From Escherichia coli (GTDB taxonomy: Bacteria > Pseudomonadota > Gammaproteobacteria > Enterobacterales > Enterobacteriaceae), in NCBI RefSeq assembly GCF_003334765.1, contig NZ_QOWT01000011.1: a stretch of DNA of 64,000 bases, one strand, 5' to 3'. A model generated the notes under the pieces. That model was not told where the DNA came from, did no database searches, and was given only the letters and a program-made list of their open reading frames with translations. Position numbers and translations under genes: made by a program. Shown here one piece after another: positions 33,576 to 36,873 of this stretch. Numbering within the stretch: position 1 is the first letter of the stretch; each line of letters opens with the position of its first letter.

Positions 33576-34424
33576 ATGAAACTCTTTGCCCAGGGTACTT
33601 CACTGGACCTTAGCCATCCTCACGTAATGGGGATCCTCAACGTCACGCCTGATTCCTTTTCGGATGGTGGCACGCATAACTCGCTGATAGATGCGGTGAA
33701 ACATGCGAATCTGATGATCAACGCTGGCGCGACGATCATTGACGTTGGTGGCGAGTCCACGCGCCCAGGGGCGGCGGAAGTTAGCGTTGAAGAAGAGTTG
33801 CAACGTGTTATTCCTGTGGTTGAGGCAATTGCTCAACGCTTCGAAGTCTGGATCTCAGTCGATACATCCAAACCAGAAGTCATCCGTGAGTCAGCGAAAG
33901 TTGGCGCTCACATTATTAATGATATCCGCTCCCTTTCCGAACCTGGCGCTCTGGAGGCGGCTGCAGAAACCGGTTTACCGGTTTGTCTGATGCATATGCA
34001 GGGAAATCCAAAAACCATGCAGGAAGCTCCGAAGTATGACGATGTCTTTGCAGAAGTGAATCGCTACTTTATTGAGCAAATAGCACGTTGCGAGCAGGCG
34101 GGTATCGCAAAAGAGAAATTGTTGCTCGACCCCGGATTCGGTTTCGGTAAAAATCTCTCCCATAACTATTCATTACTGGCGCGCCTGGCTGAATTTCACC
34201 ATTTCAACCTGCCGCTGTTGGTGGGTATGTCACGAAAATCGATGATTGGGCAGCTGCTGAACGTGGGGCCGTCCGAGCGCCTGAGCGGTAGTCTGGCCTG
34301 TGCGGTCATTGCCGCAATGCAAGGCGCGCACATCATTCGTGTTCATGACGTCAAAGAAACCGTAGAAGCGATGCGGGTGGTGGAAGCCACTCTGTCTGCA
34401 AAGGAAAACAAACGCTATGAGTAA
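33576..34424 (+). CDS. folP: Dihydropteroate synthase FolP (282 aa)
   Basis: ORF 33510-34424; product from [32 protein letters not shown]. Confidence 0.9.
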
Positions 34425-35754
34425 TCGTAAATATTTCGGTACCGATGGGATTCGTGGTCGTGTAGGGGATGCGCCGATCACACCTGATTTTGTGCTTAAG
34501 CTGGGTTGGGCCGCGGGTAAAGTGCTGGCGCGCCACGGCTCCCGTAAGATTATTATTGGTAAAGACACGCGTATTTCTGGCTATATGCTGGAGTCAGCAC
34601 TGGAAGCGGGTCTGGCGGCAGCGGGCCTTTCCGCACTCTTCACTGGCCCGATGCCAACACCGGCCGTGGCTTATCTGACGCGTACCTTCCGCGCAGAGGC
34701 CGGAATTGTGATATCTGCATCGCATAACCCGTTCTACGATAATGGCATTAAATTCTTCTCTATCGACGGCACCAAACTGCCGGATGCGGTAGAAGAGGCC
34801 ATCGAAGCGGAAATGGAAAAGGAGATCAGCTGCGTTGATTCGGCAGAACTGGGTAAAGCCAGCCGTATCGTTGATGCCGCGGGTCGCTATATCGAGTTTT
34901 GCAAAGCCACGTTCCCGAACGAACTTAGCCTCAGTGAACTGAAGATTGTGGTGGATTGTGCAAACGGTGCGACTTATCACATCGCGCCGAACGTGCTGCG
35001 CGAACTGGGGGCGAACGTTATCGCTATCGGTTGTGAGCCAAACGGTGTAAACATCAATGCCGAAGTGGGGGCTACCGACGTTCGCGCGCTCCAGGCTCGT
35101 GTGCTGGCTGAAAAAGCGGATCTCGGTATTGCCTTCGACGGCGATGGCGATCGCGTGATTATGGTTGACCATGAAGGCAATAAAGTCGATGGCGATCAGA
35201 TCATGTATATCATCGCGCGTGAAGGTCTTCGTCAGGGCCAGCTGCGTGGTGGCGCTGTGGGTACATTGATGAGCAACATGGGGCTTGAACTGGCGCTGAA
35301 ACAGTTAGGAATTCCATTTGCGCGCGCGAAAGTGGGTGACCGCTACGTACTGGAAAAAATGCAGGAGAAAGGCTGGCGTATCGGTGCAGAGAATTCCGGT
35401 CATGTGATCCTGCTGGATAAAACTACTACCGGTGACGGCATCGTTGCTGGCTTGCAGGTGCTGGCGGCGATGGCACGTAACCATATGAGCCTGCACGACC
35501 TTTGCAGCGGCATGAAAATGTTCCCGCAGATTCTGGTTAACGTACGTTACACCGCAGGTAGCGGCGATCCACTTGAGCATGAGTCAGTTAAAGCCGTGAC
35601 CGCAGAGGTTGAAGCTGCGCTGGGCAACCGTGGACGCGTGTTGCTGCGTAAATCCGGCACCGAACCGTTAATTCGCGTGATGGTGGAAGGCGAAGACGAA
35701 GCGCAGGTGACTGAATTTGCACACCGCATCGCCGATGCAGTAAAAGCCGTTTAA
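34417..35754 (+). CDS. glmM: Phosphoglucosamine mutase GlmM (445 aa)
   Basis: Full ORF; active-site SASHNP; start overlaps folP stop. Confidence 0.95.
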
Positions 35755-35773
35755 AGCGTTAGATAACTGGCTA

Positions 35774-35799
35774 AAAAGGCGGCGATTGTCGCCTTTTTT
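35774..35799 (+). terminator. Intrinsic terminator after glmM
   Basis: AAGGCGGCGATTGTCGCCTT hairpin then TTTT. Confidence 0.55.
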
Positions 35800-35981
35800 C
35801 TCAGCGAACACATCGGTTTTGCTGTTTTTTTCCGCAGTTGATACAATGCGATAAAATTGCCCTTGCGAAGGTCATTCGCTTTGGTTAGTATTCACACCCG
35901 CTTCAGTGGGAAAGATTAAAAACTCCCGCTTTATTGGTTGAAGCATTGGTACGCGGCAACTCCGCAAGGAACAGGTTGATT

Positions 35982-36314
35982 ATGTATGAAGCTCTTTTAG
36001 TAGTTTTCCTTATTGTGGCAATTGGCCTTGTTGGTCTGATCATGCTGCAGCAAGGTAAAGGCGCTGATATGGGAGCCTCCTTCGGAGCAGGCGCTTCCGC
36101 TACGCTGTTTGGTTCAAGTGGTTCTGGTAACTTCATGACCCGCATGACGGCGCTGCTGGCAACGTTATTCTTCATCATCAGTCTGGTGCTGGGTAACATC
36201 AATAGCAACAAAACCAATAAAGGTAGCGAATGGGAAAATCTGAGTGCACCGGCGAAAACCGAACAAACTCAGCCAGCTGCTCCGGCTAAGCCGACCAGCG
36301 ATATCCCGAACTAA
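35982..36314 (+). CDS. secG: Protein-export membrane protein SecG (110 aa)
   Basis: ORF 35934-36314; product from MYEALLVVFLIVAIGLVGLIMLQQGKGADMG. Confidence 0.9.
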   Translation: MYEALLVVFLIVAIGLVGLIMLQQGKGADMGASFGAGASATLFGSSGSGNFMTRMTALLATLFFIISLVLGNINSNKTNKGSEWENLSAPAKTEQTQPAAPAKPTSDIPN

Positions 36315-36328
36315 AAAGTAGTATCCGT

Positions 36329-36415
36329 GCCGAGGTGGTGGAATTGGTAGACACGCTACCTTGAGGTGGTAGTGCCCAATAGGGCTTACGGGTTCAAGTC
36401 CCGTCCTCGGTACCA
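36329..36415 (+). tRNA. leuU: tRNA-Leu (anticodon GAG), co-transcribed with secG
   Basis: GCCGAGGTGGTGGAATTGGTAGACACGCTACCTTGAGGTGGTAG...CCTCGGTACCA; long variable arm, anticodon loop TTGAGGT, encoded CCA. Confidence 0.9.
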
Positions 36416-36429
36416 AATTCCAGAAAAGA

Positions 36430-36451
36430 GACGCTGAAAAGCGTCTTTTTT
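36430..36451 (+). terminator. Intrinsic terminator of the secG-leuU transcript
   Basis: GACGCTGAAAAGCGTC hairpin followed by TTTTTT. Confidence 0.6.
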
Positions 36452-36873
36452 CGTTTTGGTCCTGGTCTGAGGAATGGTTGTCAGGTATCTGTATCTCGTC
36501 CAGTTGCTTTACTCGTAGCTGGTACCTTGAAACGATGGTGCCGGTACGCCTTAGTTATAAATTTTTCCCTTCTACTGACATAATTGGCACTTTATTGTGT
36601 CAACTCCAGTTCCGGTACGAATACGGATATGTTTACTTCTCGATAAACCATCCTGCTCCTGTCAGTATAACGACTGATGGCTACGTTCTGCGTAATGTTT
36701 AGAGACGCATTGATAATGTTATTTAATTACTGAGAACGCAATGGCCGCATCATTTAAAAAGAAAAAACTAACAGTGTTTCGTTCTGATATGGATCAGAGT
36801 TGAAAAACATGTCTGATATAAAATTAAACATTGTTGATAATTGTTTATATTGGTTGTGAACTTGGATTTCTGG

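What the first reader, a model, noticed from the sequence alone, without database searches (positions are those of the whole stretch)
36416..36873. 458-bp AT-rich non-coding spacer between leuU and yhbX
After the secG-leuU terminator there is a long AT-rich stretch containing only short, low-complexity ORFs (e.g. 36478-36702) before yhbX. It presumably contains the yhbX promoter and may be a nucleoid-protein binding platform. It is the largest feature-poor stretch in the window apart from the gltB control region.
Basis: inference. Interest (0 to 1): 0.3.

Follow-up and report, generated by a model that had tools for sequence, protein, structure and literature searches.

The report
Ordinary upstream spacer of yhbX islet
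The 458-bp gap between the leuU tRNA gene and yhbX is a real but ordinary non-coding stretch: its first 42 bases are the known leuU terminator, and the rest is the AT-rich upstream flank of a small, E. coli-specific, probably horizontally acquired yhbX segment, with no sign of a hidden gene or RNA.

Summary
The gap is exactly 36416-36873 (458 bp) and is identical to E. coli K-12 MG1655 3321614-3322071. It is the second-largest unannotated gap in the window. GC is 38% overall, but uneven: 44% for 36458-36702 and 30% for 36703-36873.

The gap has two parts:
- **36416-36457:** the experimentally characterised leuU 3' trailer and Rho-independent terminator.
- **36458-36873:** the non-coding 5' flank of a ~2.06-kb low-GC segment (spacer plus yhbX, 36458 to ~38515).

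That segment is absent from the three Salmonella and Citrobacter loci I could read, where leuU and argG lie ~180-210 bp apart. In 237 of 5426 complete E. coli genomes it is replaced by an unrelated helix-turn-helix (HTH) gene. The breakpoints fall right after the leuU terminator and inside the last codons of argG.

I found no Rfam match, no unusual RNA fold and no homologue for the 74-aa ORF outside this locus. The spacer varies about as much as yhbX third-codon positions, and it tolerates IS1, IS26 and cat-cassette insertions.

The likely function is the yhbX promoter region. The best sigma-70-like site is 36813-36841. A weak in vitro RpoH SELEX peak also falls in the spacer. H-NS binding is plausible but untested.

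Verdict: ordinary, low interest.

The parts
36416..36422 (+). A/U-rich leuU 3' trailer (AAUUCCA) just after the CCA end; site of RNase E/G cleavage that removes the terminator
   Evidence: Sequence. Mohanty & Kushner, PMC2241853: 3' ends map 1-2 nt after CCA within AAUU, and are RNase E/G dependent.
36423..36457 (+). Rho-independent terminator of the secG-leuU operon (stem-loop 36423-36452, T tract to 36457)
   Evidence: Terminator scan: 13-pair stem, 4-nt loop, T run. Shown experimentally in PMC2241853. Spacer positions 2-36 are 100% conserved in Salmonella diarizonae, and the hairpin is recognisable in Citrobacter. No substitutions among 7 E. coli strains; two of them carry a 3-base deletion at 36426-36428.
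36458..36458 (.). Left junction of the variable segment: homology with the alternative E. coli allele, and with Salmonella and Citrobacter, ends here
   Evidence: Pairwise alignment with strain 1943. About 250 genomes match the 651-bp query only up to 36457. Outgroup sequences.
36458..36702 (+). Distal spacer, 44% GC, no detectable function. It contains the 74-aa TTG ORF 36478-36702, which is most likely a chance ORF.
   Evidence: No Rfam hit. RNA fold z = -1.0 (+) and -0.04 (-). The ORF has only 5 same-locus E. coli gene calls among 5.8 billion clusters and no NCBIfam hit. 6 nonsynonymous against 4 synonymous polymorphisms. 4.1% variable sites against 4.8% at yhbX third positions. IS1 insertion at 36506-36515 in strain BY63. 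A cat cassette between 36563 and 36564 is used as a linked marker for ftsH (bioRxiv 10.1101/2023.02.03.527047).
36526..36554 (+). Weak sigma-32-like lead: CTTGAA, 15 nt, CGCCTTAG (4 of 7 specified positions of CCCCATNT)
   Evidence: Own scan. An RpoH-holoenzyme SELEX peak (intensity 3.2, the listed peaks start at 3.0) is listed for the yhbX<leuU spacer (PMC5493296). My coordinate transfer places it roughly at 36560-36700, +/-100. A CTTGAA hexamer in 458 bp is expected by chance about 0.2 times.
36703..36873 (+). Promoter-proximal AT-rich block (30% GC): presumed yhbX promoter/regulatory region and the most plausible H-NS target
   Evidence: Composition. A/T tracts at 36719-36729, 36752-36760, 36816-36828 and 36844-36851. 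2.9% variable sites plus small indels among strains.
36783..36819 (+). Palindrome TCTGATATGGATCAGA (36783-36798), with its half-site repeated as TCTGATAT at 36812-36819 overlapping the predicted -35. A possible operator; unassigned.
   Evidence: Read directly from the sequence. One strain carries a substitution in the right arm. No regulator tested.
36813..36841 (+). Best sigma-70-like promoter candidate for yhbX: CTGATA, 17 nt, GATAAT. Predicted start near 36847-36849, giving a ~25-nt leader.
   Evidence: Consensus scan, 9 of 12 matches. One site was found against 1.6 +/- 1.1 expected in shuffles, so the match alone is not significant. Only its position supports it.
36874..38499 (+). yhbX, predicted phosphoethanolamine transferase (sulfatase family, PF00884), 43% GC: the cargo of the variable segment
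   Evidence: ORF and annotation. The nearest relatives outside the E. coli cluster are at most 46-48% identical.
38500..38515 (.). Right junction of the variable segment. The yhbX stop and the argG stop are 7 bp apart. The last two argG codons differ from the alternative allele and the outgroups, and the ancestral argG terminator is missing.
   Evidence: Alignments and raw sequences. No terminator-like site on the argG strand.

Best explanation
The gap is a composite of two unrelated pieces.

(1) Bases 36416-36457 belong to the secG-leuU transcription unit. They hold a short A/U-rich trailer, where RNase E/G cuts off the terminator, and the Rho-independent terminator itself. This is shown experimentally in the literature.

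(2) Bases 36458-36873 are the non-coding 5' flank of a ~2.06-kb low-GC segment (spacer plus yhbX). This segment sits between the leuU terminator and the end of argG in most E. coli, but not in the Salmonella or Citrobacter loci examined. It looks like horizontally acquired DNA, fixed by recombination rather than by a tRNA-site integrase.

Within piece 2, the AT-rich ~170 bp next to yhbX most likely carries the yhbX promoter. The best candidate has its -35/-10 at 36813-36841 and would give a ~25-nt leader. As 30%-GC foreign DNA, this block is probably bound and damped by H-NS. Both points are inferred.

The distal ~245 bp (44% GC) most likely has no sequence-specific function. It is co-transferred flank that drifts at about the neutral rate and mainly keeps the yhbX promoter away from the strong secG-leuU terminator.
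For: - **Terminator:** scan, published 3'-end mapping (PMC2241853) and conservation in Salmonella and Citrobacter.
- **Segment boundaries:** homology with the alternative allele stops at 36457/36458 and resumes inside the last argG codons.
- **Distribution in E. coli:** the spacer is single-copy in 5179 of 5426 complete genomes. The alternative HTH-gene allele is in 237.
- **Outgroups:** Salmonella diarizonae, Citrobacter sp. MGH106 and C. amalonaticus have leuU and argG ~180-210 bp apart, with no yhbX and no similarity to the spacer beyond the terminator.
- **Composition:** the segment is the lowest-GC 2-kb stretch of the 64-kb window, 42% against 52%.
- **No close source:** the nearest YhbX relatives are at most 46-48% identical, sit in other gene contexts, and share no upstream motif.
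- **Near-neutral drift:** variable sites are 4.1% (distal) and 2.9% (proximal), against 4.8% at yhbX third positions.
- **Tolerance of disruption:** IS1, IS26 and cat insertions in the spacer.
- **Promoter:** a sigma-70-like site at 36813-36841 and an RNAP-RpoH SELEX peak listed for the spacer.
- **Annotation:** nothing is annotated here in curated MG1655.
Against: - No transcription start site, ChIP or reporter data could be retrieved, so the promoter position and H-NS binding are inferred.
- The sigma-70-like match is no better than chance in shuffled sequence.
- All E. coli alleles are at least 95% identical, so the conservation test has little power. A short operator or a small transcript could hide in it.
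- Presence of the segment in other Escherichia species (E. albertii, E. fergusonii, E. marmotae) could not be checked, because the genome collection returned no Escherichia locus. 'E. coli-specific' therefore means absent from the three Salmonella and Citrobacter loci where the leuU-argG gap could be read.
- 10 of the 5426 genomes carry neither allele and were not examined.
Confidence: 0.75

Rival explanations
1. The 74-aa ORF 36478-36702, or the 20-aa ORF 36741-36803, is a real unannotated small-protein gene.
For: The 74-aa frame is open in all 7 strains aligned. A GAGGA motif lies 5 nt upstream of its TTG. A few pipelines have called it as a hypothetical protein.
Against: - It has only 5 gene calls, four labelled or near-identical E. 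coli and one unlabelled at 75% identity, among 5.8 billion protein clusters. There is no homologue elsewhere and no NCBIfam match.
- Polymorphisms run 6 nonsynonymous (including R>C, F>S and Q>H) to 4 synonymous.
- It starts 21 nt after a strong terminator, with no promoter in between.
- It is interrupted by IS1 in a natural isolate and by a cat marker in laboratory strains.
- The 20-aa ORF is frame-shifted in the three most divergent of the seven strains aligned (AVS0790, A36, 23AR0151).
- Neither ORF is in curated MG1655, which does list small proteins such as yrbN.
Confidence: 0.04
2. The spacer encodes a small regulatory RNA or a structured cis-regulatory leader of yhbX (for example a long 5' UTR started from a distal sigma-32 promoter near 36526-36554).
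For: An RpoH-holoenzyme SELEX peak is listed for the spacer. A perfect CTTGAA -35 lies at 36526 on the yhbX strand. Two more distant YhbX relatives also have upstream gaps of ~530-550 bp.
Against: - There is no Rfam match, even at E <= 5.
- Folding energies are indistinguishable from shuffles.
- The sigma-32 -10 is poor (4 of 7), and the SELEX signal (3.2) is barely above the lowest values listed (3.0).
- One natural strain mutates the CTTGAA (36526 C>T).
- No motif is shared with the upstream regions of relatives.
- Variation is at about the neutral level.
Confidence: 0.1
3. The distal spacer is a decayed remnant of something once functional: a pseudo-tRNA or attachment-site scar of an integrase-mediated island at leuU, or a pseudogene fragment from the donor.
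For: The location directly 3' of a tRNA gene is a classic island site. A 20-nt stretch (36523-36542) is 75% identical to the leuU anticodon/variable arm. GC of 44% resembles yhbX coding DNA.
Against: - The leuU-like repeat is not significant: 122 of 500 shuffles score as well, and only 33 of 87 positions match in register.
- No tRNA-like hit in the spacer from ARAGORN or Rfam.
- No direct repeat of the tRNA 3' end flanks the segment, and there is no integrase.
- The junction lies after the terminator, not inside the tRNA.
- No translated similarity to the neighbours of the nearest YhbX relative.
- No homologue for the longest frame.
Confidence: 0.1

Closest known systems
Rho-independent terminator and 3' trailer of the E. 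coli secG-leuU operon (Mohanty & Kushner 2008, PMC2241853)
   Same: Bases 36416-36457 are this element itself: an A/U-rich RNase E/G site after CCA, then a 13-pair hairpin and a T tract.
   Different: It covers only 42 of the 458 bp and explains nothing downstream of 36457.
Small horizontally acquired low-GC 'islets' next to tRNA genes in enterobacteria, typically silenced by H-NS (xenogeneic silencing)
   Same: Low GC (42% against 52%), absent from Salmonella and Citrobacter at the same site, polymorphic within the species, with a 30%-GC upstream region.
   Different: There is no integrase and no duplicated tRNA 3' end. The junction is after the terminator and inside the last argG codons, so the segment looks like a recombinational replacement, not a site-specific insertion. 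H-NS binding was not tested.
3' external transcribed spacer of the glyW-cysT-leuZ tRNA operon (3'ETS-leuZ), an sRNA sponge
   Same: Both are tRNA-Leu 3' trailers released by RNase E and ending at the operon terminator (for leuU; the leuZ case is recalled from the literature).
   Different: The leuU trailer is only 42 nt and is nearly all terminator hairpin. No sRNA pairing was tested here, and none is reported in the papers I read. This is a resemblance only.
Promoter regions of the other E. coli phosphoethanolamine-transferase genes (eptA, eptB, eptC), which respond to envelope-stress regulators
   Same: An AT-rich upstream region of a paralogous envelope-modification gene. Short direct and inverted repeats overlap the predicted promoter.
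   Different: No PmrA, PhoP or sigma-E site was identified. The TGTTGA-N4-TGTTTA repeat has 10-bp spacing, not the 11-bp spacing I recall for PhoP boxes. This is a reading from memory, not a test.

Membership tests
Intrinsic (Rho-independent) terminator | G+C-rich hairpin followed directly by a U tract, with transcript 3' ends mapping there | tested here: met
   Scan at 36423-36452 plus T tract. 3' ends mapped in PMC2241853.
Sigma-70 promoter of yhbX | -35 and -10 hexamers with 16-18 bp spacing upstream of the gene | tested here: inconclusive
   CTGATA-17-GATAAT at 36813-36841 (9 of 12). One site found against 1.6 +/- 1.1 in shuffles.
Sigma-70 promoter of yhbX | A mapped primary transcription start site | not testable with these tools
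   No TSS table that I could open listed yhbX or leuU.
tRNA-associated genomic island (integrase type) | Low G+C relative to the genome, and absence from related species | tested here: met
   GC 42% against 52%. Absent in Salmonella and Citrobacter.
tRNA-associated genomic island (integrase type) | An integrase gene and direct repeats duplicating the tRNA 3' end at both borders | tested here: not met
   No such ORF or repeat. The leuU-like 20-mer is at chance level. The junction lies after the terminator.
H-NS-bound xenogeneic DNA | AT content well above the genome average, with A/T tracts | tested here: met
   30% GC in 36703-36873, with A/T tracts of 8-13 nt.
H-NS-bound xenogeneic DNA | H-NS occupancy in vivo (ChIP) and de-repression in an hns mutant | not testable with these tools
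   No data found. The TCGATAAATT-like motif at 36640 (8 of 10) occurs at background frequency, 1.2 per kb.
Small-protein gene | ORF conserved beyond the species, with an excess of synonymous change | tested here: not met
   No homologue outside the locus. 6 nonsynonymous against 4 synonymous changes. The 20-aa ORF is frame-shifted in some strains.
Described RNA family (Rfam 15) / structured RNA | A covariance-model match, or a fold more stable than shuffled sequence | tested here: not met
   Only tRNA reaches its gathering score. Nothing meaningful starts in 36458-36873. z = -1.0 and -0.04.

The most novel reading that the evidence does not exclude
The distal half of the spacer is not inert. 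It could carry a sigma-32 (heat-shock) promoter near 36526-36554 that drives a ~310-nt leader. That would put the uncharacterised phosphoethanolamine transferase YhbX under heat or envelope-stress control, with the leader acting as a regulatory RNA or H-NS/Rho-sensitive switch. More broadly, the leuU-argG junction could be a recombinational hot spot exchanging alternative cassettes (yhbX against an XRE-HTH gene).
Probability: 0.08. Interest if true: 0.35.

Novelty: already known. Interest (0 to 1): 0.12.

Why it matters
It matters little for new biology. The region is a plain intergenic stretch of the best-annotated bacterial genome, and my tests found no hidden gene, RNA or repeat element.

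The useful points are practical:
- The spacer should be read as part of a lineage-specific yhbX segment, not as conserved core intergenic DNA.
- It is a tolerated insertion site, both naturally and in the laboratory.
- In yhbX-carrying strains argG has lost its ancestral terminator and converges directly on yhbX. That is relevant to anyone studying expression of either gene.
- yhbX remains the least characterised phosphoethanolamine-transferase paralogue in E. coli, so knowing where its promoter can and cannot be narrows future experiments.

Tried and rejected
- **Rfam at E <= 5:** only tRNA. The weak hits (STnc50, isrK, MIR8008) merely overlap the terminator hairpin.
- **Pseudo-tRNA or att scar:** the 20-nt leuU-like repeat is at chance level.
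- **RNA structure:** the distal spacer shows no signal on either strand.
- **H-NS high-affinity motif:** matches occur at background frequency.
- **YhbX scan of species-representative genomes:** no confirmed hit.
- **leuU-anchored scan of the same collection:** 23 loci but no Escherichia. It was still useful for Salmonella and Citrobacter.
- **First protein search with YhbX:** returned only near-identical E. coli entries.
- **Apparent 74-88% identical YhbX fragments in the representative library:** the one traced (P0157, locus L034) is bisulfite-converted E. coli reads, with every difference C>T. I discarded it and suspect the other 68-88% fragments are the same, but did not check them. P0129 (86%) traced instead to an ordinary E. 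coli contig, 98.8% identical at the DNA level.
- **Upstream regions of four distant YhbX relatives:** no shared motif. A shared 10-mer with L036 is isolated and at about chance level.
- **Plasmid collection:** the only hits are mislabelled or integrated chromosomal copies.
- **Divergent E. coli alleles:** attempts to pull out the three records in the 80-90% identity band failed. A sub-query showed no such band, so they are probably partial alignments.
- **Literature:** TSS, H-NS and ribosome-profiling supplements were either not held, or cut before 3.32 Mb, or did not list the genes. Papers that mention yhbX concern the argG-yhbX junction as an engineering site, a knockout screen and an intragenic GalR motif, not this spacer.

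Full report
**Observation**

The window around the finding is E. coli K-12 in reverse orientation. The gene order is glmM (34417-35754), secG (35982-36314), tRNA-Leu(GAG) leuU (36329-36415), yhbX (ATG 36874, stop 38499) and, converging on it, argG (38507-39850).

The gap 36416-36873 is exactly 458 bp. Over the 4301 bases I compared, the window equals MG1655 apart from one SNP inside yhbX (MG1655 coordinate = 3358487 - window position). The curated MG1655 record annotates nothing between yhbX and leuU.

Against the RefSeq annotation of a strain identical to the window here, this is the second-largest unannotated gap in the window. Only yhcC-gltB (674 bp) is larger.

GC is 38.2%, against 51.9% for the window. 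That places it in the lowest 1% of 458-bp windows. The composition is uneven: 44% in 36458-36702 and 30% in 36703-36873.

**Anatomy, part 1: the leuU trailer and terminator**

The first 42 bases are not anonymous spacer. They hold the A/U-rich trailer after the CCA end and a 13-pair hairpin with a T tract (36423-36457).

Mohanty and Kushner showed that secG-leuU transcripts end after this Rho-independent terminator. They also showed that RNase E, with help from RNase G, removes the terminator by cutting in the AAUU just after CCA (PMC2241853).

This is the only part of the gap with similarity outside E. coli. Spacer positions 2-36 are identical in Salmonella enterica subsp. diarizonae, and the hairpin is recognisable in Citrobacter.

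**Anatomy, part 2: the flank of a variable segment**

A search of 5426 complete E. coli genomes found the leuU end of the query in all of them. About 250 matched only up to base 36457.

In those genomes, such as strain 1943, everything from 36458 to the end of argG is replaced. The replacement is an unrelated 954-bp gene for an XRE-type helix-turn-helix (HTH) protein on the other strand. This alternative allele is present in 237 genomes.

The spacer itself is single-copy in 5179 genomes. Ten genomes carry neither allele and were not examined.

Three outgroup loci could be read across the interval: Salmonella diarizonae, Citrobacter sp. MGH106 and C. amalonaticus. In all three, leuU and argG are only ~180-210 bp apart. 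They have no yhbX and no similarity to 36458-36873.

The outgroups and the HTH allele share an argG terminator (AAAAAAGGCCGC...GCGGCC). The yhbX allele lacks it. Its yhbX and argG stop codons are 7 bp apart, and the last two argG codons differ: GQ* here, VK* in the HTH allele and AK* in the outgroups.

The unit is therefore 36458 to ~38515, about 2.06 kb at 42% GC. It is the lowest-GC 2-kb stretch in the window.

There is no integrase and no duplicated tRNA end, and the left junction lies after the terminator. This is not a classical integrase-type tRNA island. It looks like a recombinational replacement.

YhbX has no close source. Outside its own E. coli cluster, the best full-length relatives are 41-46% identical. 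They sit in unrelated contexts, and their upstream regions share no motif with this spacer.

**Is anything hidden in 36458-36873?**

- **Known RNA families:** Rfam gives nothing at E <= 5.
- **RNA structure:** the distal half folds no better than shuffled sequence on either strand, with z = -1.0 and -0.04.
- **The 74-aa ORF:** its only matches among 5.8 billion protein clusters are five sporadic calls of the same locus (four E. coli, one unlabelled at 75% identity). It has no NCBIfam match.
- **Selection on that ORF:** among seven strains its ten polymorphic sites split 6 nonsynonymous to 4 synonymous.
- **The 20-aa ORF at 36741:** it is frame-shifted in three of the seven strains.
- **tRNA remnant:** a 20-nt resemblance to leuU is at chance level.
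- **Rate of variation:** across K-12 and the three most divergent strains I found, variable sites are 4.1% (distal spacer) and 2.9% (proximal spacer). Third-codon positions vary at 4.8% in yhbX, 8.7% in argG and 13.2% in glmM. The spacer thus drifts at about the synonymous rate of its own segment.
- **Tolerance of insertion:** IS1 sits at 36506-36515 in strain BY63, and IS26 at about 36770 in another isolate. A cat cassette between 36563 and 36564 is used as a linked marker for ftsH in MG1655 derivatives.

All E. coli alleles are at least 95% identical. These conservation tests therefore have limited power against a very short element.

**Likely function**

By position, the yhbX promoter must lie in this stretch.

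The only sigma-70-like site is CTGATA-17-GATAAT at 36813-36841, 33 nt before the ATG. The match is no better than chance in shuffles, so it is a candidate and not a finding. It overlaps a small palindrome (TCTGATATGGATCAGA, 36783-36798) and a repeated half-site (36812-36819). These could be an operator; no regulator was assigned.

Genomic SELEX with RpoH holoenzyme lists a weak peak for this spacer, at intensity 3.2, barely above the lowest values listed (3.0) (PMC5493296). My coordinate transfer puts it at roughly 36560-36700, +/-100 bp.

A perfect CTTGAA lies at 36526, but the -10 that follows is poor. One natural strain mutates that CTTGAA. I treat a sigma-32 promoter with a long leader as a low-probability lead.

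H-NS binding of the 30%-GC block is plausible from what is generally known about xenogeneic silencing. I found no data on it, and the one motif match is at background frequency.

**Comparison with what is known, and verdict**

Part 1 is a published element. Part 2 behaves like the upstream flank of a small acquired low-GC gene segment. It fails the defining tests for an integrase-type island, a small-protein gene and a described RNA family.

What it missed is that the stretch is lineage-specific and polymorphic rather than conserved.

Nothing here is surprising to a specialist, so interest is low. The most novel reading still open is a heat-shock promoter with a regulatory leader for the uncharacterised YhbX. 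I put it below 10%.

**Caveats**

- Both scans of the species-representative genome collection returned no Escherichia locus, not even for an exact leuU pattern. I could not test whether the segment occurs in other Escherichia species.
- Contigs assembled from bisulfite-converted reads put at least one fake 'divergent' YhbX fragment (P0157) into the protein library. I identified it (locus L034) and discarded it.
- The literature supplements that might hold TSS, ChIP or ribosome-profiling calls for this locus were not available, or were cut before this part of the genome.

Noticed in passing
L001:6191-7144 (E. coli strain 1943); same site as window 36458-38515: 237 of 5426 complete E. coli genomes carry an unrelated 317-aa protein gene between leuU and argG instead of spacer+yhbX. 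It has an N-terminal XRE-type HTH domain and a large C-terminal part with no family match. NCBIfam and PADLOC hits are weak and cover the HTH only.
   Followed up: partly
window 38499-38515: In the yhbX allele, the yhbX and argG stop codons are 7 bp apart. The argG terminator kept by Salmonella, Citrobacter and the HTH allele is missing, and the last two argG codons differ (GQ* against VK*/AK*). argG transcripts probably run antisense into yhbX; a 2025 paper lists argG-yhbX as an 'excludon' (PMC12288877).
   Followed up: partly
window 34417-39850 compared with L038-L040: Third-codon-position diversity among four strains is much lower in yhbX (4.8%) than in the flanking core genes glmM (13.2%) and argG (8.7%). 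yhbX first and second positions are relatively variable (1.4%). This fits a younger or swept segment under relaxed constraint. yhbX is a pseudogene in one of the strains examined (internal stop in XH2172) and is split by IS26 in Z1323CEC0017.
   Followed up: partly
L034 (Logan SRR3359616 contig), protein P0157 and possibly similar fragments: A contig 83% identical to the window over 5.5 kb differs only by C>T changes. It is assembled from bisulfite-converted E. coli reads. Such contigs create fake 'divergent homologues' in the protein libraries; the other 68-88% identical YhbX fragments may be the same but were not checked.
   Followed up: yes
L024 (contig labelled MAG: Collinsella sp.): This 1.5-kb contig carries E. 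coli leuU, the HTH-allele gene (100% identical) and the end of argG. It is almost certainly E. coli contamination in a Collinsella bin.
   Followed up: no
window 36830-36859: Three TTGTT-like units at 10-bp spacing (TTGTTGATAA / TTGTTTATAT / TGGTTGTGAA) overlap the predicted -10 and start site of yhbX. The pattern is reminiscent of response-regulator direct repeats. No regulator was identified.
   Followed up: no
L033:3821-4022 and L023:720-933 (Salmonella diarizonae, Citrobacter amalonaticus): The short leuU-argG spacer of these outgroups contains REP/BIME-like palindromes (GCCGGATGGCGGCG...GCCTTAT..GGCCTAC). Both E. coli alleles lack them.
   Followed up: no
window 37987: This is the single difference from MG1655 in the 4.3 kb compared (T here, G in MG1655), at a first codon position inside yhbX. 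The window is therefore from a K-12-like strain that is not identical to the reference; JME65 is one of several strains that match it exactly over the 651 bases compared.
   Followed up: no
Genome-contig collection: An exact 48-nt leuU pattern and the YhbX peptide patterns returned no Escherichia locus from the species-representative genome collection. Its stored sequence seems incomplete for this genus, so negative results there should be read with care.
   Followed up: no
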